Shown: piece after piece, positions 15,946-56,753 of the stretch
Layout: each line of letters begins with the position of its first letter
Numbering within the stretch: the stretch's first letter is position 1
Source of the DNA: a virus
Taxonomy: Duplodnaviria > Caudoviricetes
IMG/VR virus record: IMGVR_UViG_3300010049_000011
Location: 32,001-96,000 of that record
Reading direction: 5' to 3' (one strand)
DNA: 64,000 bases
Notes under the pieces: model-generated
What the model saw: only the letters and a program-made list of their open reading frames with translations
Database searches by the model: none
What the model was told of the DNA's origin: nothing
Made by a program: the position numbers and the translations under genes

Positions 15946-17508
15946 ATGCAGAAAGTGTATGCCAGACAATGCGACTTAAGAGATATATCTTATGAAGATC
16001 TAGACATATTCTTAGTTCAGCATCATAGACAGAAAACTTGTAACGGACAAGAGTTTAGGTATGGATTGTTCTTTGAAGATACTCTCGTAGGAGTGATGAC
16101 TTTCGGGAAACCTAGATATAATCGCCATTTTCAATACGAATTGTTAAGATTGTGTTACCACTCTGAGTATCAAATAGTTGGTGGGTCCGAGAGGTTACTA
16201 AAGAAATTTATCGAGGAAAACAAGCCTGTTTCAATATTGTCTTACTGTGATAAAAGGTATTATAAGGGGGAGGTGTACGAGAGACTTGGGTTTAAAAAAT
16301 TATACGATTCCCCTCCTCAGAAAATTTGGGTAAAGGGTGGTAAGAAAATAACCTCAAATCTTCTTAGACAGCACGGAGCAGATAGATTAATAGGAACAAA
16401 GGAGGGTAAAGGCTCTAATAACGAAGAGATTATGCTGAGAGAAGGGTGGAAATTTGAAGAGGATGCAGGTCAGTCTGTTTGGGTTTTAGAGTTCTCAAGA
16501 GGAAAAGTAGGATATATTTACAGGACTACAAACAATATAGACGCTAAGACTTATATAGGACAGCATTATTGGTGTAACGAGGGTGTTGACCCTACTTATT
16601 TTGGCAGTGGAACTAAAATACGGAATGCTATTAACAAGCACGGCAAAGATAATTTTAGTATTGAATTGGTTGAAGAATGTCTATCTATATTTGATCTAAA
16701 TAGTAGGGAAATATACTATATAAGGAAGGAAAAAGAATTAGGTAAGGGGGAATATAATCTTAGATCTGGAGGGTTTTGGGGATACACATTCGACTCCGAA
16801 GAAACTAAATTAAAAAAATCTGTTGCGTCTAGGGCAATGTGGGAATCAGAAGAATATAGAGGGAAACACAGAGAAGCTATGGAGAGGGTTTACCAGGACC
16901 CTGATTACTTAGCGAGACGGTCTGCGACATCCAAAGCCACGTGGGAGGATCCTAAGTATAGGGAAAGAATGCGAGAAATCTACTCTTCAGTAGAGTGTAT
17001 GCAGAATCGATCCGATAAATCTAAAGAACTGTGGCAGGATCAACGTTTTAGAGACAACCAAATAAAGGTCCGTACTTCGGAGGAGTTTAGAGATAATCAA
17101 TCCAAAAAATCTAAGGAACTGTGGCAGACTGAAGAGCACAAAAAGAATCACGACGATGGTCAGAAGAAGAGATTAGCCGACGAAGATCTAGGGAAGAAAC
17201 TATCGGATGGGTGTAAGAAAGGTTGGCAGAATAGAGAGTCTAAAAAGAGAAGAATAGAGATTCAAAACAGTGATGAAGTTCGACAGAAAAGGTCAGAATC
17301 TGTAAAGTTAAGCCACTCTAATAGAGAGGTTCTCGATAAAATATCCACTGCATCTAAGGAGCTCTGGAAAAATCCCGAACATAAAGAAAAGATGGCTGCA
17401 GCATCTAAAAGCCGTTGGAACGATCCCGAGTACAGGGAAAGAATGTCAAGGATACAGGCCGAGGCTTGGGAGAGACGCAGGAACTCTAAAGCTAATTCGT
17501 CTTTCTAA
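15946..17508 (+). CDS. Free-standing homing endonuclease: Mom/GNAT-like domain + GIY-YIG + helical W-repeat DNA-binding tail
   Basis: YARQC...ELLRLC...GG...SYCD..Y.G.VY..LGF; GYIYRTTNNIDAKTYIGQH...YFGSG...E..YI...YN; S-K-x-L-W repeats. Confidence 0.8.
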   Translation: MQKVYARQCDLRDISYEDLDIFLVQHHRQKTCNGQEFRYGLFFEDTLVGVMTFGKPRYNRHFQYELLRLCYHSEYQIVGGSERLLKKFIEENKPVSILSYCDKRYYKGEVYERLGFKKLYDSPPQKIWVKGGKKITSNLLRQHGADRLIGTKEGKGSNNEEIMLREGWKFEEDAGQSVWVLEFSRGKVGYIYRTTNNIDAKTYIGQHYWCNEGVDPTYFGSGTKIRNAINKHGKDNFSIELVEECLSIFDLNSREIYYIRKEKELGKGEYNLRSGGFWGYTFDSEETKLKKSVASRAMWESEEYRGKHREAMERVYQDPDYLARRSATSKATWEDPKYRERMREIYSSVECMQNRSDKSKELWQDQRFRDNQIKVRTSEEFRDNQSKKSKELWQTEEHKKNHDDGQKKRLADEDLGKKLSDGCKKGWQNRESKKRRIEIQNSDEVRQKRSESVKLSHSNREVLDKISTASKELWKNPEHKEKMAAASKSRWNDPEYRERMSRIQAEAWERRRNSKANSSF

Positions 17509-20572: not shown

Positions 20573-20766
20573 TAATTTCAAGATTTTTATCCTTATATAA
20601 ATGTGGCGAGAGGCGCAATGCTCTAAATCACTTAGGATTCTCAACGACGGACGCCACAGGTTTTAGAAGGAATAAGAAGACTGTTTTAGTAAATTGATGA
20701 GGGTTGATCTCGGTTACGAGACGCTCTGCAATGTAATTACTCTGTAGAGGTTCCTTGAAGAACACG

Positions 20767-20900
20767 CCTCTTCGCTAAACCCGCGAGAGAATAAGGAAAG
20801 GAGAGGGCAGCGACGCAAGAAACAGGAGACTTGCGGGCACCCAAGGAGACGCGGGTTTAGTAAAGAGGATCCGGGAGGACTTTCGAGGGTCCTCCCTTTT
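20767..20900 (+). ncRNA. Candidate structured ncRNA (rod with purine-rich bubble) ending in a terminator
   Basis: GCTAAACCCGCG/CGCGGGTTTAGT and CCTCT/AGAGG outer stems; CGCAAG/CTTGCG inner stem; GGGAGGAC/GTCCTCCC-TTTT; 5' end unknown. Confidence 0.5.
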
Positions 20901-21099
20901 AGGGCCAAGGTCAAACGTACTTGGAATGTCTTACTAAAAGAAGCTCACCCCTTCGGTTTTTACGATTACGCCCTAAATTCTTTTTACACAATCTTCTTAT
21001 TCACGATGTAAAACACGAAACTGTAGAAGTGTGTTGTTTACAACTCTTTCTCGTTTCACTCAAGCTTGGTTTGTTTTAACTCTCCTTGCTTGATAATTT

Positions 21100-21184
21100 C
21101 AACTATAGCTTGCTTCTTTCCAAAAGTCAAGTGAAAAGTTTGGTTGCGGGAGCAGGAACCTAGCAAAGCTAATAAATAAATTTG
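21100..21184 (-). promoter_or_regulatory. Sigma70-type early promoter module, copy 1
   Basis: TTGACT (21130-21125) - 17 nt - TATAGT (21107-21102) with an AT-rich upstream element; inverted copy of 51959-52043. Confidence 0.75.
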
Positions 21185-21365
21185 TTTTCCATGAAGAAGT
21201 GCGTCAGTTTCCTAAAAAGTTAATCGACAACCTATTCTACTTCTCATGTTAATTATAACACCAGACTGTCCTGGTAGTTGTAGCACAAGCTACTCTACTC
21301 TCGGACTTAACGTCAAACCCTCACCCTACATCGTTGGCTGATAACTAATAATTGGAGAACCTTCA

Positions 21366-46884: not shown

Positions 46885-48582
46885 CTACACCCAAACTAAA
46901 GCCTCTTGGAAGTATTTGGGAAATAGATTCTTGTTCCTCTTCCACAGAGACTCGAAACTCCCGTCCAGGATCCAAGTATCCGCGTAATCCGATACTGACC
47001 TCACAGACCTTCCAGAACCTTGGACTATCTGCTCGATAGTCTTACCGGCATACCACTCAGAATCTCTCTCCATACGAGCTTTTATCGCGTTATCCCCTAA
47101 CGACAGGTAGGGAACTTTTACGAACATCTGGAACCTCGAAAGATCGTCGTCTAGACTTATTCCTTCAGTACAGGAAGGAGATAGTAAGATCCCGTTTTTG
47201 CTCTTGTAAAACGCTTCCAACACCTCTTCTTTTGTCTCGGACGTATGGATAAGCATTCTTTTGGCGTTTCGAGAGTGTTCGAACACAAATCTAGCATTTG
47301 CGTAGGAAGTTGTGTGAACAATACCTTTCGAGGTACTGTAGGACTTTTCGATTAAGTCATCCATGAAGGAAACCATCTTAGGGAGCGTCTTTTCTTTATT
47401 CGCGTAATTCATGTATCCAACAGGGCAGAAGAAGATCTTACGATTCTCCACAGGAAAGGACATCGGTAGTTCGAGAACTTCACATTGGTCGAACGGTATT
47501 CCTAGATCCTTAGCGAATCTTCGGGGGTCGATTGTTCCAGACATAAAGATCAGCTTACGTGCAAATTGGTTGAGAATATCTTCCGTCATGAATTCCACAG
47601 AGATTGGAATAACCTCGAACCCCACCACATCTTCCTTCTCATCGAGGTAGTAGTTCGTAGCCCAATCGGTCTTTTCTTTGTGTTTGCGGTAGTTTGCTAT
47701 CTTACAAATTACGTGTTCGATCTCGTAGGAAAACTCACCCAAGCAGCAATTCTTGAAGTATTGGTCTATGACGAATTGATCCTTCTCAGTCTGTTTCATG
47801 TATTCTTGGATATTCTCGGAGTATTCGTCTATGTCTTTTTTGAATTTGCAGAGGTTTGAGAATAAAGAATCTATCCAGCGAAACAGCTCCTTTTCTTTAC
47901 GAACCTCGTTATCGATAACTAACTCTTGAGGGATAAATCCTGAGTAATTCTCAAAGCCCTTCGTTTGGTTTTTCGCGTAGGATACGACCTTATTGAAGTA
48001 TGTTAGGAATTTCTGATCGACAACTATAGCTCGATAGCCTTGGATCACTTTCTCAGCGCAATGGCATTCGTCGATAACAGCTAAATCCCTTGTCCCGAAG
48101 GAGCCGGTGAAGTCGAAATCAAGCAAGAGGAAGTGTAGGTTGGTCAGACAGATTGGATGGTTCTTCGCTCTCTCTTTAGCGCACTTATACGGGCATTCTC
48201 CAGCACATCTCATGGAGAATTTTTTATTGCTTCTGCACGGAGCTTCGGTATACTTGCAGGGACGAATAATACAGTCGTAATTATCCTGACCCTTTATGAG
48301 GGCCAATTGTTGTGGCGAGAACGTCCTCTCGTACTGCTCGAGTAGCGCATTAAATGGTGCAAGTAAGAAGGTAGAGCCACCGCCTCTTTGAACTAATTTC
48401 GAGGTAATATAAGCAATCAGGCTTTTCCCTGCTCCTGTTGGTGCCGAGATAATCATGTATTTCTTGGGGTTGTCCTGTGTGTTATACCACTTTTTGATGG
48501 TATCAAGAGCATCGATCTGCTGAGGACGGAGAGTGTCTGAAACAGTATTAAACTGCTGATAAGTTAGGTTTTCGGGAATCAT
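46885..48582 (-). CDS. DinG/XPD-like SF2 helicase
   Basis: RPQQ; APTGAGKS; four-Cys Fe-S-type cluster; IDECH; MSGT; EGISL; KVPY; QGSGRSVRS..D. Confidence 0.88.
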   Translation of the reverse strand: MIPENLTYQQFNTVSDTLRPQQIDALDTIKKWYNTQDNPKKYMIISAPTGAGKSLIAYITSKLVQRGGGSTFLLAPFNALLEQYERTFSPQQLALIKGQDNYDCIIRPCKYTEAPCRSNKKFSMRCAGECPYKCAKERAKNHPICLTNLHFLLLDFDFTGSFGTRDLAVIDECHCAEKVIQGYRAIVVDQKFLTYFNKVVSYAKNQTKGFENYSGFIPQELVIDNEVRKEKELFRWIDSLFSNLCKFKKDIDEYSENIQEYMKQTEKDQFVIDQYFKNCCLGEFSYEIEHVICKIANYRKHKEKTDWATNYYLDEKEDVVGFEVIPISVEFMTEDILNQFARKLIFMSGTIDPRRFAKDLGIPFDQCEVLELPMSFPVENRKIFFCPVGYMNYANKEKTLPKMVSFMDDLIEKSYSTSKGIVHTTSYANARFVFEHSRNAKRMLIHTSETKEEVLEAFYKSKNGILLSPSCTEGISLDDDLSRFQMFVKVPYLSLGDNAIKARMERDSEWYAGKTIEQIVQGSGRSVRSVSDYADTWILDGSFESLWKRNKNLFPKYFQEALVWV

Positions 48583-48605
48583 ACTCCCTAGAAGGTGGCG
48601 ATGTT

Positions 48606-48962
48606 TTACGAATTCGCGTTAAGATCGTTTGGGTGTTGAGGACAGGTTATGTGTGGGAATTTTCCAGACAACAACTCCAAGACATCGAACTTATTCTGCC
48701 TTAGAGCGCCCATTCGAGATTTGTAGTATTCTCTCTTAACACTAGACGACGCTTTAAGTGTACAATCTATTCCTACCCAACTCTTACCGTCGTCATGAAC
48801 CTCAGCTTCAGGATATTGCTTATCTTCGTAATCGTAGTAGATTGAAATATCTTTCGCCTGACAATACGTCTTCTCGTCGAAGTAAATCCTACAACCCTTC
48901 CATATTGAAATATTGAATCCAGAGTCTCTTAACTGCTTTGCTGCTAATTCGATTTTCTTCAT
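48606..48962 (-). CDS. Hypothetical protein
   Basis: 118-aa ORF upstream of the helicase. Confidence 0.55.
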   Translation of the reverse strand: MKKIELAAKQLRDSGFNISIWKGCRIYFDEKTYCQAKDISIYYDYEDKQYPEAEVHDDGKSWVGIDCTLKASSSVKREYYKSRMGALRQNKFDVLELLSGKFPHITCPQHPNDLNANS

Positions 48963-49013
48963 ACAGACGCGTAGAAGTAATTAAAAATTCCTCAGAGTAA
49001 ATATTCTGAGGTT

Positions 49014-49044
49014 CAAATAATTTTAATACGTTTGCTAGGTTCTT
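49014..49044 (+). repeat. Third, partial copy of the early-promoter upstream element
   Basis: CAAATAATTTTAATACGTTTGCTAGGTTCTT vs CAAATTTATTTATTAGCTTTGCTAGGTTCTT at 51959 (25/31 identical). Confidence 0.65.
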
Positions 49045-49070
49045 AGAGAGAATGCAGTGGCTCCCCTTGC

Positions 49071-49872
49071 CTCGTAATACTCGTTCGATAAATCTCACTC
49101 GTATTACTCACCATACCCCACTTAGCTCGTTCGCTTCGCTCACTCGGTCTATGTGTTACTCGCTCCTCGAATACAGAGTATTCTCGTCGACATTTCAAGC
49201 GTTCACTCACTTACGTTCGTTCACTGTGAAATGTATCGTAACAGAATCAATATTAACTCGCAAAGTATTGCTCGTAAATTGATTCTTGGACCCTAGAACC
49301 TATGTTTAGTCGAGAAAGAGCGCTACGCTACTTTCCTCCTAGTTGGCTACCCGCCAGGTCAGATCTACTCTCGAAACAGAGTTTCTCGTAATTAACTTCA
49401 CTACACAACTGCGTCTTTTAGAGACTTGTTGTTGGTTCAATTAATTAAAGTTCGCTTCGCTCACGATCTGAGAACAGGTAGACCTTTCGGTCCTAAGGGT
49501 AGCAAGTTCAAGTACTGTTTAATTTCTTCTCTCATGCATGTGTAGATCTATTCGAATACTACTAGATAAATCTAGTAGATATTCTCATATCTCTATCATC
49601 TGTTATGTTTCTTCTTAATCTTCTTAATCTACTCTACTATTATTTTTATTTATTCTTTCTTCTTACTTATTCTTAAATAATTAATCTATAATGTTATAAA
49701 AACTAGGATAACTAGATCTTAATAAGAATTATTCTGTTTATTATGTTAAGAATATTAAATTATGTATCCAGTTATTTTTAAGATTCTACATCTACAGTAT
49801 TTATTCAGTATTGTTAAGACTTAGTATTACTCAATTACTCACTTCGTTCGTAATCTCGTAAACATAAGTCTT
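49071..49872 (-). other. Non-coding array of tandem-G.A / GNA-loop hairpins plus an AT-rich tract; candidate replication origin
   Basis: About ten hairpins, two with GCGAAGC; AT-rich stretch ~49600-49815; no credible ORF. Confidence 0.6.
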
Positions 49873-49893
49873 GTAAACCTAGGTAATTTGAAC

Positions 49894-50529
49894 ATGTTCC
49901 AGAAGTTAATAGAATACCTCGAGAAGCTGTTTAAGAAATTACTAGGTGTTCGTGAAGAAGGTTTGGAAAAACGTCTCTCGAAGGACTCTAAGGAAGATAA
50001 TAACCAATCTAAAGGTGTAGTTATGACGGAAGTAAGAGAATTTGTAAAAAAGAACGATATGTGGGTAGATTTTGATCCTAAGGATATTTCAGACGAGATC
50101 AAAGTGAGGTTGGAGATTACAAGATCTAAAGTTAATCTCCTGTTAGCTGAAGCACCCGAAGAGCTTACTAAGTTAGTAATTGTTCAGAGAGGTTGGAGAT
50201 CTCCTGAAAAGAATACTTCAGTAGGAGGAGTATTGAATTCACCTCACGAGTCTGGAGAAGGAATAGATATTAGGGAACTCAAATTTAGTAAACAAGAACT
50301 AGCTAAGTGGTGTGCTAAGAACCAAAACTTACTAAAGAAGCATGGGTTGTATCTTGAAGATCCAGCTGTAACTGTTGGGAACTTTACTGATTGGTGTCAC
50401 TTACAGACTCGCCCAACTAAATTAGGTAATGTTGTGTTCATGCCTTATTCTTACACAGGGTATAATTCGTCTAAGGAATCAGTGTCTCAAAAGTGGTGGT
50501 CTGATTTAGGTGTTAAGAGGCCGTTTTAA
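49894..50529 (+). CDS. Peptidase M15-family endolysin
   Basis: GWRS..KN..VGG..NS.H..G.GID...WCH zinc ligands; second possible start at ATG 50023. Confidence 0.8.
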   Translation: MFQKLIEYLEKLFKKLLGVREEGLEKRLSKDSKEDNNQSKGVVMTEVREFVKKNDMWVDFDPKDISDEIKVRLEITRSKVNLLLAEAPEELTKLVIVQRGWRSPEKNTSVGGVLNSPHESGEGIDIRELKFSKQELAKWCAKNQNLLKKHGLYLEDPAVTVGNFTDWCHLQTRPTKLGNVVFMPYSYTGYNSSKESVSQKWWSDLGVKRPF

Positions 50530-50578: not shown

Positions 50579-50618
50579 AAATTACTAAGATGTGCAAGAA
50601 ATTACTAAGATGTGCAAG
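50579..50618 (+). repeat. Exact 20-bp tandem duplication over a start codon
   Basis: AAATTACTAAGATGTGCAAG twice. Confidence 0.9.
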
Positions 50619-51944
50619 ACTCTCCAGTTAAAGAGGGGTAGTGCTTCCGACAATAATTCTTTTACAGGACTTCCTGGAGAATTGACTGTTGATCTAGACA
50701 CTCCTTCTCTAAGGCTCCACGACGGATTAACATCAGGCGGCTTAACTATCCAGACATCTCCAAGAACGGTCTACGGGTACTACTACTTTCCTACAGATAT
50801 GTTTTATTGGGATCCAGGTTGCACCTTTCCTATAACAGAGGACTACCAGGGAAACGTAGGCTCAGATCCACAAGAAGGAAACAAGTTCTTCGATATTCGG
50901 TACGGTGTGGGGAATGCTAAAGAGTTTATATATTGCCTCGCTGGAGGCGGTAGGTATAGTAGTCGTAGGTTCTTGCGTAAGAGATCGAACTTGGGTGTTA
51001 GACCTAATTTCAAGGCCGTAGATTACACCCAATCCGTTAGTTCGAACTCTCAATCTCTGGTGTGTAATTTTCGCGGGTCTCTGTTTCACGGAAATCGTGC
51101 TAATACCGGTATGGGTTTTCATACGTTTATAGGCTCTCCTGAGGTTATTAGATTCTCGGGTCATAGTATAATTTGGCCTGCATCTAGAGATTGGATAGCA
51201 GGGACTTACGTTGGTCGTAGATCTAGTGACGGTTCGGATGTGTATTTGTTGGGGTGGACTAATAGAGGGTTAGCGAGAATTGTAGTAGACAACCCTGATA
51301 GCGGTACTCCTGCGTTAAACCCTGAGAGTGCTGAATTACCTCTTCCTGTAGGATGGGTGAACGATATACGTAAATTGAATACGTCGTATTATTGTTGGGA
51401 TAACTCAGGAACACCAACAACGGTGTTGGTGGGTAATGGAAACCAGATAGTTGCGTGTACTTATGATGTAGACCTTAACCCTGTTTGGGGAACCGTTAAC
51501 ACCACACCTATAGCTATAGATACGTATGCTACTGCCTGTGGGGTGTCTGGACTTCCCTTCGACGACGATATCGTGGAACACTTTCAGACTCAATACGGTG
51601 GATCTCAAGGTGTAGTTTCTTATATATCTAGATCCACAGGGGAACTGTTAAACTCCATTGCATTCCCTAATGTCGGAACAGGTTTAAATTCCTCGGCGGC
51701 GTTTTGGGATCTACAATTAGACGTAATAATCCACCAACAGAACGCCTCAGCGAACAATTTCGGCGGTTTTAGTGTGAACACCGACGACTTAGGGGATTCT
51801 CCTTCTTGGGTTGCTTACAGGTTCTGGTTGACGGATACTGCAAACACAACTAATGGAGAGTTCGCTAACTGCGCCTTTGACGGTCTCGGTAACTTCTGGT
51901 CTGGTAGGAACGCTGCGGTTCTCCAGTACGGAAGTTTGGATTAA
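50610..51944 (+). CDS. Receptor-binding / tail fibre protein with Mtd-like N-terminal domain
   Basis: LQLKRG...FTG.PGELTVDLD...LRLHDG.T.GG; beta-rich remainder. Confidence 0.7.
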   Translation: MCKTLQLKRGSASDNNSFTGLPGELTVDLDTPSLRLHDGLTSGGLTIQTSPRTVYGYYYFPTDMFYWDPGCTFPITEDYQGNVGSDPQEGNKFFDIRYGVGNAKEFIYCLAGGGRYSSRRFLRKRSNLGVRPNFKAVDYTQSVSSNSQSLVCNFRGSLFHGNRANTGMGFHTFIGSPEVIRFSGHSIIWPASRDWIAGTYVGRRSSDGSDVYLLGWTNRGLARIVVDNPDSGTPALNPESAELPLPVGWVNDIRKLNTSYYCWDNSGTPTTVLVGNGNQIVACTYDVDLNPVWGTVNTTPIAIDTYATACGVSGLPFDDDIVEHFQTQYGGSQGVVSYISRSTGELLNSIAFPNVGTGLNSSAAFWDLQLDVIIHQQNASANNFGGFSVNTDDLGDSPSWVAYRFWLTDTANTTNGEFANCAFDGLGNFWSGRNAAVLQYGSLD

Positions 51945-51958
51945 TTATCCTACCCAAT

Positions 51959-52043
51959 CAAATTTATTTATTAGCTTTGCTAGGTTCTTGGTTCAAAAAC
52001 CAAATTTTCCGCTTGACTTTTGGAAGGAAGCGAGCTATCGTTG
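51959..52043 (+). promoter_or_regulatory. Sigma70-type early promoter module, copy 2
   Basis: TTGACT (52013-52018) - 17 nt - TATCGT (52036-52041); 85-bp homology with 21100-21184. Confidence 0.75.
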
Positions 52044-52075
52044 GAAAGCATGGAACAAAAAGAAAGGGGACAAGG

Positions 52076-55136: not shown

Positions 55137-56753
55137 GTGGTAAGGGTTGAAGCAAGAAGTTGTGAACTGAGATCCGTCTCCCTAAAAGAGGCGGATTTAT
55201 TTTTAATTAACCACCACAGACAGAAGTCGTGCGTAGGACAAGAACATAGATATGGCCTATTTTATAATAAAGATTTAATTGCGGTTATGACGTTCGGAAA
55301 ACCTAGATACAATAGACATTTTCAGTTCGAAATTCTTAGGTTGTGTTTCCGAGAAGGGTACTTAGTGGTCGGCGGCAGCGAGCGGATGTTCGCTAACTTC
55401 TTAAAAGACGTTTCCCCTATTTCTATACTATCTTACTGTGATAAGAGATATTACACAGGGGAAGTCTACAAAAGATTAGGGTTCAACCACTTATACGATT
55501 CTCCTCCTCAGAAGATCTGGTGTAAGGGAGACAAGAAGATAACGTCCAATCTTCTGAGGAGATACGGACCAGATAGACTTATAAGAACCGGGGACGGGAA
55601 AGGGTCTGATAACGAAGAGATTATGTTGAGGGAAGGGTGGGTTCCCGAGGAAGATCTAGGTCAGGGAGTTTGGGTTTGGGAATCTCCGGTTAGAGGGAAA
55701 GTTGGTTACATATGTAGGATAATAAACAAGATAAACAACAGTACTTACGTAGGGCAGAAGTATTGGGGAGAGGAAGGTATAGACCCCACGTACTTAGGGA
55801 GCGGTACTCTAATAAAGAAGGCTGTAGAGAAGTACGGAAAAGACAATTTTAAGGTTGAGTTAATCGAGGAGTGTTATTCTGTTTTTGATCTTAATAGGAA
55901 AGAAATCGAGTACATAGAGTCTGAACGGAAGGTGGGGGGAGCTGAGTATAACATCACCTCCGGAGGGTTCTGGGGGTATGGTGTTGTTTCGGAAGAGACT
56001 AAGAGAATTATCTCCCAAAACAGCAAGAAGATGTGGGAAGATGAGGAATTTAAAGAACACATGACTAAAGTGTTTAAAGACCGTTGGAAGGATCTGGAGT
56101 ATAAGAAGAGGGTAGTAGAGGCTATAGTTGCTTCTCAGAAAACCGAGTCTTACATACAAAAAGCAACCAACTCGGCTAGGGACCGTTGGATCGATCCCGA
56201 GCAGCGGAAGAAGGTATCGGAGGCCGTCAAAGAATACTACGACAAAACCGAAGGATCTAGAGAGAAGTGTTCGGAGATCTCTAAAAAGACGTGGGAAGAT
56301 GAAGAGTTAAGAACTCGACAATCTAACACTTATAAAGAAAAATGGAAAGATCCTAAGTTCAGGGCAGAGAGGATTAAAAAGACTCAAGAAGCGAGAAGTA
56401 CTGAAGAGGCTAAGAAGAAGACATCCCAAGCTTCAATAGAGATGTGGAAGGACCCAGAATTCAGGGAAAGAGAGACGTTGAGAAAGAAAGAATCCGTGAC
56501 TGAAGAATTCCGAGACTTAGTTTCCCAAAACAGCAAGAATCTCTGGAAAGACGAAGAGTATAGAAGAAAACGTAAGGAATCCTTAGATAAATATAGATCC
56601 TCTAGAGAGGGCAAAGAGAAGTGCTCTGCTGTTTCAAAGAAAGTTTGGGTAGACCCAGAGAGAAGGAAGGCAGCGTCGGAGAAGAGAAAGGTCCTGTGGA
56701 AGGACCCAGAATTCAGGGAAAAGATGAGATTAAACTCCGGTTCTAAACCCTAA
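55137..56753 (+). mobile_element. Free-standing endonuclease: Mom/GNAT-like + GIY-YIG + W-repeat tail (paralog of 15946-17508)
   Basis: Shared blocks MTFGKPRYNRHFQ, SILSYCDKRYY, YDSPPQKIW, ITSNLLR, EEIMLREGW, RGKVGYI, DPTY.GSGT. Confidence 0.82.

What the first reader, a model, noticed from the sequence alone, without database searches (positions are those of the whole stretch)
49071..49872. Strand-specific array of tandem-G.A, GNA-loop hairpins: candidate folded ssDNA element or origin
Seen on the minus strand: hairpins whose stems are repeatedly interrupted by GA/GA mismatches (TC/TC on the plus strand). Examples: 49071-49110 GTAATAC-GA-GT-GA-GAT..ATC-GA-AC-GA-GTATTAC; 49126-49146 C-GA-GT-GA-GC-GAA-GC-GA-AC-GA-G; 49166-49186; 49191-49233 (GTAA loop); 49243-49286; 49370-49388; 49450-49464; 49550-49588; 49816-49872 (AC-GAA-GT). 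There are also a GC-GTA-GC loop (49312-49338) and GACC-GAAA-GGTC (49481-49492). Long-range stems 49154/49243 and 49346/49503 close multibranch domains, and an AT-rich tract lies at ~49600-49815. Known: sheared tandem G.A pairs and d(GCGAAGC)/GNA triloops are unusually stable in DNA, and such mini-hairpins occur in phage origins and N4 promoters. Inference: a structure that forms only when this strand is single-stranded (priming or helicase-loading signal), located beside a DinG-like helicase at a strand switch. A large ncRNA is the alternative.
Basis: partly seen in the sequence, partly recalled or inferred. Interest (0 to 1): 0.82.

Follow-up and report, generated by a model that had tools for sequence, protein, structure and literature searches.

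The report
Strand-specific DNA-type mini-hairpin array in phage
An orphan 145-kb myovirus contig has a 0.9-kb gene-free island whose minus strand folds into about a dozen G·A-mismatch hairpins around the genome's most AT-rich tract, which looks most like a replication-start or unwinding signal, though a large structured RNA is almost as likely.

Summary
On the minus strand of 49045-49872 there are 8 strict hairpins with tandem GA/GA loops. Five of them have two or more loops, against 0.03 expected, and these are 5 of only 9 such hairpins in the whole record. Thirteen of 14 loops have the Y-GA-R context. GCGAAGC (twice), GCGTAGC and CCGAAAGG occur only on this strand. The hairpins lie on both sides of the most AT-rich 200 bp of the record (18% GC), which holds seven TTAAGA hexamers pointing outward from about 49730.

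No Rfam family, reverse transcriptase, tRNA or credible ORF explains the island. The phage has no close relatives, so covariation could not be tested.

I favour a single-stranded-DNA reading (about 0.42), for four reasons:
- The smallest hairpins are barely stable as RNA (-0.2 to -2.4 kcal/mol).
- They match sequences documented as extraordinarily stable in DNA.
- The same 15-nt cap is enriched in intergenic gaps of other phages.
- In those gaps it shows no tie to the sense strand.

A structured RNA or leader is the close rival (about 0.35). A promoter-like box reads leftward into the domain, and a terminator-like hairpin follows it. An R-loop origin would reconcile the two readings.

GC skew gives no support for an origin, and the replicative helicase lies 35 kb away. 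This scan has noted the same hairpin grammar before in other phages.

The parts
49816..49872 (-). 57-nt hairpin to the right of the AT tract. It has GA/GA loops and an AC-GAA-GT apex.
   Evidence: RNA MFE is -17.3 kcal/mol (z -5.1) on the minus strand and -11.0 on the plus strand.
49600..49815 (.). AT-rich tract, a candidate unwinding element. It holds seven TTAAGA hexamers: four read leftward (49613, 49622, 49671, 49717) and three read rightward (49746, 49778, 49814).
   Evidence: 18% GC, the record minimum; 7 copies against about 0.3-0.5 expected, the largest cluster in the record.
49696..49716 (-). Box-A-like motif reading leftward. It is a variant, with a 2-nt longer spacer, of the motif found 20-60 nt upstream of several rightward genes.
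   Evidence: The pattern has 5 matches in both strands of the record, and 3 of them are Box A copies.
49543..49597 (-). Hairpin with two GA/GA loops and a TTTA loop.
   Evidence: -19.8 kcal/mol, z -3.8. Plus strand: -15.9.
49481..49492 (-). GACC-GAAA-GGTC hairpin. It contains CCGAAAGG, a documented DNA mini-hairpin.
49450..49464 (-). 15-nt cap GT-GA-GC-GAA-GC-GA-AC, first copy.
   Evidence: As RNA it folds at only -0.2 kcal/mol.
49389..49447 (-). 59-nt hairpin with one GA/GA loop and a G.T wobble pair.
   Evidence: -14.3 kcal/mol, z -4.2. Pair probabilities are 0.9-1.0.
49370..49388 (-). C-GA-stem-TCT-stem-GA-G hairpin. It is a paralogue of 49163-49189, with compensating stem changes.
   Evidence: -2.4 kcal/mol as RNA.
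49309..49339 (-). Hairpin with a GCGTAGC apex and a G-GA-G / C-GA-C loop.
49243..49286 (-). Hairpin with a 9-bp outer stem and one GA/GA loop.
   Evidence: -14.0 kcal/mol, z -5.2.
49190..49238 (-). Hairpin with two GA/GA loops and a GTAA loop.
   Evidence: -12.6 kcal/mol, z -2.7.
49163..49189 (-). Hairpin with two GA/GA loops and a TCT loop.
49126..49146 (-). 21-nt hairpin C-GA-GT-GA-GC-GAA-GC-GA-AC-GA-G, holding the second copy of the cap. The same 22-23 nt occur in the N4-like phage phCDa.
   Evidence: As RNA it folds at -1.6 kcal/mol, z +0.1.
49071..49110 (-). 40-nt hairpin with three GA/GA loops.
   Evidence: -10.2 kcal/mol, z -3.8. Plus strand: -6.0.
49013..49044 (+). Remnant of a dispersed 5' cassette ('Box B') of a rightward gene family. 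It points into the island and is followed by a stop after 4 codons.
   Evidence: (D17, I8).
48990..49011 (-). Terminator-like hairpin followed by a T-rich tail, between the structured domain and the 118-aa ORF.
   Evidence: One such site was found against 1.1 expected by chance, so on its own it is weak evidence.
46885..48962 (-). Context: the leftward unit downstream of the island. It comprises a 118-aa ORFan (48606-48962) and a DinG/Rad3-like SF2 helicase (46885-48582).

Best explanation
The island is a strand-specific array of DNA-type mini-hairpins placed on both sides of the genome's most easily melted tract. I read it as an origin-like unwinding or priming element.

Shown:
- The hairpins exist only on the minus strand.
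- They follow the sheared-G.A grammar: Y-GA-R contexts and GNA or GNNA loops closed by C:G.
- The AT tract and its outward-pointing TTAAGA repeats are unique in the record.

Inferred mechanism:
1. The AT tract opens.
2. The purine-rich minus strand then folds into hairpins that resist re-annealing and single-strand-binding protein. The precedent is N4 promoters and the G4 origin.
3. The pyrimidine-rich plus strand is left exposed for helicase or primase loading.
4. The likeliest trigger is leftward transcription from the Box-A-like motif. That transcription makes the minus strand the displaced non-template strand, and a purine-rich RNA on a pyrimidine-rich template would favour an R-loop, as at T4 oriF/oriG or ColE1.
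For: - Enrichment and strand specificity of the GA/GA hairpins.
- 13 of 14 loops are Y-GA-R, p = 1.6e-7.
- GCGAAGC (twice), GCGTAGC and CCGAAAGG occur only on the minus strand. GCGAAGC occurs 7 times in the whole record on both strands together.
- These sequences are the documented hyper-stable DNA mini-hairpins. Tm is 76.5 C for d(GCGAAGC) and 65 C for CCGAAAGG, against 39 C for r(GCGAAAGC) (PMC13037366).
- As RNA, the four purest hairpins fold at -0.2, -1.6, -2.4 and -4.9 kcal/mol with z about 0. In the RNA ensemble they have pair probabilities of 0.06 or less.
- Hairpins lie on both sides of the AT tract on the same strand.
- The AT tract is the GC minimum of the record and holds the largest TTAAGA cluster, arranged as a dyad.
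- In 106 classifiable instances of the 15-nt cap in other phage contigs, 54% are intergenic against 13% expected. Enrichment is highest in divergent gaps (5.5-fold). The sense:antisense ratio is 17:12.
- In the T4-like Aeromonas phage AS-szw (8 related Aeromonas records also matched) and in Aeromonas phage 85AhydR10PP, the cap lies antisense to the flanking genes.
- N4 gives a precedent for SSB-resistant DNA hairpins with a sheared G:A pair (PMC4496689).
Against: - There is no GC-skew inflection at the island.
- The DnaB-like helicase is 35 kb away.
- There are no 17-22-bp iterons.
- ViennaRNA DNA parameters show no strand asymmetry, z -2.14 against -2.09. Those parameters may not credit sheared G.A pairs or GNA loops.
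- A few G.T wobble pairs sit in the stems.
- The element is much larger than known ssi or priming signals.
- There is no conservation evidence at all, because the phage is an orphan.
- The association of the cap with AT-rich tracts in other phages is only a trend once gap length is controlled, p = 0.053.
Confidence: 0.42

Rival explanations
1. The island encodes a large structured non-coding RNA or a roughly 700-nt leader. It would be transcribed leftward from the Box-A-like motif at about 49700, folded into a compact multi-domain RNA (49045-49600), and ended or attenuated at the hairpin at 49011-48990 before the ORFan-helicase operon. The function would lie at the RNA level, either regulating the operon or acting as a free-standing ornate RNA.
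For: - The RNA fold has z -4.66 on the minus strand against -1.81 on the plus strand.
- The global MFE of -173 kcal/mol is far below the -101 of the local hairpins alone.
- A Box-A-like motif reads leftward, and the leftward operon has no other recognisable promoter.
- A terminator-like hairpin follows the domain.
- GAAA and GUAA tetraloops are present.
- 12 G.U pairs occur in the MFE.
- Tandem GA is the commonest 2x2 loop in natural RNAs (PMC5900564).
Against: - No Rfam match appears even at E <= 10.
- The purest GA hairpins are not stable as RNA and are not formed in the RNA ensemble.
- Half of the strict hairpins have triloops.
- The right-hand hairpin (49816-49872) lies upstream of the putative promoter, so it would not be in this RNA.
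- The cap shows no sense-strand bias in other phages.
- The terminator scan result equals chance expectation.
- There is no expression data.
Confidence: 0.35
2. The hairpins are promoters of the N4 type. A single-stranded template-strand hairpin with a GNA loop would be read by a phage RNA polymerase. Because the hairpins are on the minus strand, they would drive rightward transcription. For example, the hairpin at 49816-49872 would start transcription about 40 nt before the peptidase gene.
For: - An identical 22-23-nt hairpin sits in a divergent gap of the N4-like phage phCDa.
- N4 promoters are hairpins with a 3-nt loop and a sheared G:A pair on the template strand (PMC4496689).
- The spacing to the ATG at 49894 resembles the other 5' leaders in this phage.
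Against: - No virion-type RNA polymerase is visible. The largest ORF in the record is 916 aa.
- PF00940 gave no hit, although its control genomes were silent too.
- A dozen promoters within 800 bp, most of them far from any rightward gene, make little sense.
- The phage is a contractile-tailed myovirus.
Confidence: 0.05
3. The island has no dedicated structural function. It would be a divergent promoter and operator hub, with TTAAGA sites for a regulator, plus a recombination scar or cassette debris. The hairpins would be by-products of a 4-nt periodic purine-rich sequence.
For: - A remnant of a dispersed 5' cassette lies at 49013-49044.
- The genome is rich in homing-endonuclease genes.
- Another 721-bp gap (20645-21365) is also structured.
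Against: Periodicity alone does not give matched RY/RY steps on both arms, and dinucleotide shuffles essentially never give multi-loop hairpins. The concentration of 5 of the 9 multi-loop hairpins in 0.8 kb and the strict strand bias both argue for selection.
Confidence: 0.13

Closest known systems
DNA mini-hairpins d(GCGAAGC), d(GCGNNAGC) and CCGAAAGG at priming sites (G4, St-1 and alpha3 complementary-strand origins; RSF1010 ssiA)
   Same: The apex sequences are identical. The loops are GNA or GNNA, closed by C:G, with a sheared G:A pair. The elements are strand-specific and are proposed to resist SSB (PMC13037366).
   Different: The known cases are one to three hairpins, 40-140 nt in all, in single-stranded phages or plasmids. 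Here about 12 hairpins span 800 nt in a large double-stranded myovirus, and their stems are extended by repeated tandem GA/GA loops.
Coliphage N4 early promoters (vRNAP hairpin promoters)
   Same: They are DNA hairpins with a 3-nt loop and a sheared G:A pair. They are stable on one strand while SSB melts the other (PMC4496689). The same 22-nt hairpin occurs in an N4-like phage.
   Different: No vRNAP was found, the hairpins are far more numerous, and most are not placed before genes.
Transcription-activated origins: T4 oriF/oriG (promoter plus unwinding element plus R-loop), ColE1 RNA II, lactococcal phage c2 ori transcript (from my own knowledge; not checked in papers here)
   Same: The layout is a promoter-like box inside or next to an AT-rich tract, followed by a transcribed structured non-coding stretch of about 550 nt in a divergent early/late gap. 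A purine-rich transcript would favour a persistent hybrid.
   Different: There is no sequence similarity. None of these is known to use a displaced strand made of G.A mini-hairpins. R-loop formation was not tested here.
Large ornate phage-associated RNAs (GOLLD, ROOL)
   Same: They are 500-800 nt, non-coding, phage-borne and highly structured, with GNRA loops.
   Different: There is no Rfam match at any threshold. Neither homologues nor covariation are available. The hairpin grammar here is DNA-like.

Membership tests
DNA mini-hairpin motif (Hirao type) | The sequence GCGNAGC, GCGNNAGC or CCGAAAGG on the folding strand | tested here: met
   GCGAAGC at 49460 and 49139, GCGTAGC at 49328 and CCGAAAGG at 49490. 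All are on the minus strand and none on the plus strand.
DNA mini-hairpin motif (Hirao type) | Extraordinary thermal and nuclease stability of the DNA form compared with the RNA form | not testable with these tools
   Literature values only. The RNA nearest-neighbour energies of the caps are about zero.
Primase or primosome priming signal (ssi, G4 oric type) | Supports primer synthesis on the single strand in one orientation | not testable with these tools
   This needs an ssi plasmid or M13 rescue assay.
N4-type hairpin promoter | A phage polymerase that reads hairpin promoters is encoded | tested here: inconclusive
   There is no ORF above 916 aa. PF00940 gave no hit, but its controls were silent. 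The record is 58% complete.
N4-type hairpin promoter | A stem of 5-7 bp with a 3-nt purine-centred loop on the template strand, placed just upstream of genes | tested here: inconclusive
   Loops of the GAA and GTA type are present. Only the hairpin at 49816-49872 is placed before a gene.
T4-type R-loop origin | A promoter reading into a DNA unwinding element | tested here: inconclusive
   A Box-A-like motif reads leftward inside the 18% GC tract. Promoter activity is inferred only from where Box A sits before genes.
Iteron-type origin (lambda, plasmids) | Several 17-22-bp direct repeats next to an AT-rich tract, with an initiator gene nearby | tested here: not met
   Only the 6-mer TTAAGA occurs (seven copies, in dyad layout), together with a 9-bp repeat of 2.3 copies. 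No initiator was recognised.
Chromosome-type origin by base skew | A minimum or switch of cumulative GC skew at the site | tested here: not met
   Skew rises monotonically along the record, with only a local flat stretch.
Any Rfam RNA family | A covariance-model match | tested here: not met
   No match at gathering score over the window, and none at E <= 10 over 48500-50300.
Retron / DGR non-coding RNA | An adjacent reverse transcriptase, plus template and variable repeats | tested here: not met
   No RVT_1 match in the record, and no TR/VR-like repeat.

The most novel reading that the evidence does not exclude
The island is a new kind of phage replication origin. Leftward transcription through the AT tract forms an R-loop. 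The R-loop is locked open because the displaced non-template strand collapses into an 800-nt array of SSB-resistant G.A mini-hairpins. The purine-rich RNA on the pyrimidine-rich template then serves as primer. The same hairpin grammar in long AT-rich gaps of many unrelated phages would mark the same mechanism.
Probability: 0.25. Interest if true: 0.85.

Novelty: new variant of a known kind. Interest (0 to 1): 0.6.

Why it matters
Origins and priming signals are unknown for most large environmental phages. If an array of DNA mini-hairpins beside an unwinding element marks replication start, it would give a sequence-only way to locate origins. If it marks another single-strand-dependent signal, it would locate that instead. 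It would also extend a motif known from tiny single-stranded phages and from N4 promoters to large double-stranded phages. If the element is instead an RNA, it is a new large ornate phage RNA with an unusual architecture. In either case, the hairpin grammar (Y-GA-R steps, RY/RY 2-bp rungs, a GNA apex) is a compact, testable rule.

Tried and rejected
- **Rfam.** No hit at gathering score or at E <= 10.
- **tRNA/tmRNA.** None found.
- **Reverse transcriptase, retron or DGR.** An Mtd_N-like tail protein next door prompted the check, but there is no RT and no TR/VR repeat.
- **Coding potential.** No ORF of 90 aa or more lies in the gap. Genetic code 4 opens nothing convincing. The small ORFs have no Pfam hit. 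One 55-aa ORF has a weak PHROG HTH hit (E 0.0026, 18.9 bits). I judged it spurious because that ORF is made of hairpin arms.
- **Homologues of the element.**
  - BLAST against 50,697 phage records found nothing for the whole region.
  - A 22-mer from a junction has no match in metagenome contigs.
  - The helicase has no relative above 36% identity.
  - The tail sheath has no relative in IMG/VR.
  - The 118-aa protein is an ORFan.
- **Synteny.** Helicase relatives at 32-41% identity have no such island. The 36% relative shows a similar 435-nt divergent gap, but its DNA could not be fetched.
- **Promoter scans.** There is no sigma-70-like promoter on the minus strand. A Bacteroidota-type TAnnTTTG motif is not enriched in the genome.
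- **GC skew.** No signal.
- **AT-rich association of the cap in other phages.** p = 0.0012 uncontrolled, but 0.053 when gap length is matched. I treat it as a trend only.
- **Extension of the 15-nt cap into longer stems in other phages.** About 17% extend by 3 or more pairs, against 5.5% in controls. Many instances therefore stand alone or are chance matches.
- **One script timed out**.

Full report
**Context.** The window is bases 32001-96000 of a 145-kb IMG/VR virus record estimated to be 58% complete. The record is a divergent contractile-tailed phage. It encodes a sheath, baseplate wedge, tape measure, portal, UvsX-like recombinase and GroEL. Nearly all genes are on the plus strand: 105 against 13 ORFs of 150 aa or more. 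The finding lies in a 925-bp gap between two divergent units. To the left is a leftward unit made of a 118-aa ORFan (48606-48962) and a DinG/Rad3-like SF2 helicase (46885-48582). To the right is a rightward M15-peptidase-like gene, whose likely start is the ATG at 49894.

**Observation.** I defined a strict hairpin as a 3-8-nt loop, Watson-Crick or G.T pairs, and 2x2 GA/GA loops each closed by a pair.
- The minus strand of 49045-49872 has 8 such hairpins with 14 GA/GA loops, and 5 hairpins carry two or more loops.
- 500 dinucleotide shuffles gave means of 1.7 hairpins, 1.7 loops and 0.03 multi-loop hairpins (maxima 6, 6 and 1).
- The plus strand has one strict hairpin and no multi-loop hairpin.
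- In the whole record, both strands together hold only 9 multi-loop hairpins, and 5 of them are here.
- In about 1 Mb of other phage loci chosen because they contain the same cap, the density is 1.8 per 100 kb of strand.
- Thirteen of 14 loops have pyrimidine-GA-purine on both arms (p = 1.6e-7). The 2-bp rungs between loops are therefore always purine-pyrimidine steps paired GT/AC, AC/GT or GC/GC.
- Five of the eight apical loops are triloops: GAA three times and TCT twice.
- GCGAAGC occurs 7 times in the record on both strands together. Two of these copies are here, as are one GCGTAGC and one CCGAAAGG, all on the minus strand.

**The AT tract.** The stretch 49638-49837 has 18% GC, by far the lowest 200 bp in the record; the next lowest is 27.5%. 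It holds seven TTAAGA hexamers against 0.3-0.5 expected, the largest cluster in the record. Four read leftward in the left half and three read rightward in the right half, so they point outward from about 49730. There are no 17-22-bp iterons. GA hairpins sit on both sides of this tract on the same strand: 49816-49872 on the right and 49071-49597 on the left.

**What the island is not.**
- It matches no Rfam family, even at E <= 10.
- There is no tRNA and no reverse transcriptase.
- No credible ORF exists under code 11 or code 4.
- Cumulative GC skew shows no switch; it rises along the whole record.
- The DnaB-like helicase is 35 kb away.

**No comparative test was possible.**
- The helicase has no relative above 36% identity among 5.8 billion clusters.
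- The 118-aa protein is unique.
- The sheath has no close relative in IMG/VR.
- BLAST against phage records and a 22-mer scan of metagenome contigs found nothing.
- More distant helicase relatives lack a comparable island.

**RNA or DNA?** The evidence for RNA is as follows.
- The 591-nt minus strand folds with z = -4.66, against -1.81 for the plus strand.
- The larger hairpins are 2.5-6.3 kcal/mol better on the minus strand.
- Tandem GA is the commonest 2x2 loop in natural RNAs (PMC5900564).
- A variant of 'Box A' reads leftward at 49716-49696. Box A itself lies 20-60 nt before at least five rightward genes.
- A terminator-like hairpin (49011-48990) follows the domain.

The evidence for DNA is as follows.
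- As RNA, the purest hairpins are marginal. The 15-nt cap folds at -0.2 kcal/mol, the 21-nt hairpin at -1.6 and the two TCT-loop hairpins at -2.4 and -4.9, all with z near 0.
- In the RNA partition function these hairpins are essentially not formed, and long-range helices replace them.
- Yet these are exactly the sequences documented as extraordinarily stable in DNA. d(GCGAAGC) melts at 76.5 C and CCGAAAGG at 65 C, whereas r(GCGAAAGC) melts at 39 C (PMC13037366).
- The right-hand hairpin lies upstream of the putative leftward promoter, so it would not be part of that RNA.
- ViennaRNA's DNA parameters give no strand asymmetry, but they may not credit sheared G.A pairs or GNA loops.

- Of 106 classifiable instances, 54% are intergenic against 13% expected. 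Enrichment is 5.5-fold in divergent gaps, 3.5-fold in co-directional gaps and 3.9-fold in convergent gaps (chi-square p = 1e-35).
- In co-directional gaps the sense:antisense ratio is 17:12, so there is no tie to the mRNA strand.
- In the T4-like Aeromonas phage AS-szw (one of 8 matching Aeromonas records) and in Aeromonas phage 85AhydR10PP, the cap lies antisense to the flanking genes.
- In the N4-like Pseudomonas phage phCDa, an identical 22-23-nt hairpin sits in a divergent gap.
- Identity is not homology here. The grammar leaves only about four choices per rung, so identical caps are expected by convergence (inference).
- Only about 17% of instances extend into longer stems, against 5.5% in controls.
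- The link to AT-rich tracts is a trend once gap length is matched, p = 0.053.

**Mechanism.** I favour, at 0.42, an origin-like single-strand element. Opening of the AT tract lets the purine-rich minus strand (57-62% purine) fold into hairpins. These would resist re-annealing and SSB, as at N4 promoters, where SSB melts one hairpin and spares the other (PMC4496689). The pyrimidine strand would be left free.

Leftward transcription from the Box-A-like motif would make the minus strand the displaced non-template strand and produce a purine-rich RNA on a pyrimidine-rich template. Those conditions favour an R-loop. This reconciles the RNA-type and DNA-type evidence and resembles T4 oriF/oriG and ColE1, which I cite from my own knowledge. 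The steps from 'the hairpins exist' onward are inference.

The pure-RNA reading (a leader or ornate ncRNA) stands at 0.35. N4-type promoters stand at 0.05. A reading with no dedicated function stands at 0.13.

**Earlier notes of this scan.** Earlier notes describe the same hairpin grammar in other phages: a Goslar-like non-coding element, a CPR phage upstream of terminase, N4-like promoters, and a hairpin-rich unit near replication genes. I used them as leads only. Only the promoter-box lead was tested here.

**Verdict.** The element is a new variant of a known kind. Its function is unproven, and the orphan status of the phage makes bench tests the only way forward.

Noticed in passing
window 1221, 5107, 11876, 33479, 63500 (plus two more copies outside the window): A 17-nt 'Box A' motif (TCTAAATCCTAGTTAAT and variants) lies 20-60 nt upstream of rightward ORF starts. 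It is probably a phage promoter class. Five matches were found against 0.47 expected.
   Followed up: partly
window 21097-21187, 51956-52046, 49013-49044 (plus at least 5 copies outside the window): A dispersed cassette of about 90 nt with the invariant core TTTGCTAGGTTC and a small hairpin. Read on the plus strand, it precedes or overlaps the starts of several rightward genes. Some copies are remnants followed by early stops. It resembles the mobile promoter plus stem-loop cassettes of T4-type phages.
   Followed up: partly
window 20645-21365: A second large ORF-free gap of 721 bp lies upstream of another leftward unit. It has GC-rich hairpins and folds equally well on both strands (z -2.8 and -2.7), with no GA grammar.
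   Followed up: partly
window 50592-51944: A 450-aa protein has an N-terminal Mtd_N domain (major tropism determinant), but the record has no reverse transcriptase and no template/variable repeat.
   Followed up: partly
window 16225-16486 and 55416-55677; 55137-56753: A 262-nt repeat (76% identity) links two ORFs that carry tandem W-x-D-P-E-like repeats. The ORF at 55137 matches HNH and homing-endonuclease PHROGs.
   Followed up: no
window 49888-50529: The M15-peptidase-like ORF listed from a TTG at 49888 more likely starts at the ATG at 49894. A CTAGG-type ribosome-binding motif lies 12 nt upstream, as at other genes of this phage.
   Followed up: no
L127 2501-2523 (Pseudomonas phage phCDa, record 67260-67282): An N4-like phage carries the identical 22-23-nt GA hairpin in a 494-bp divergent gap between a tail-fibre gene and genes leading to a P4-type primase. 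If it is a template-strand hairpin, it would drive leftward transcription.
   Followed up: partly
window 49043-49210 (minus strand): A 55-aa ORF made of hairpin arms has a weak PHROG hit to an HTH DNA-binding family (E 0.0026) and no Pfam hit. It is probably spurious.
   Followed up: yes
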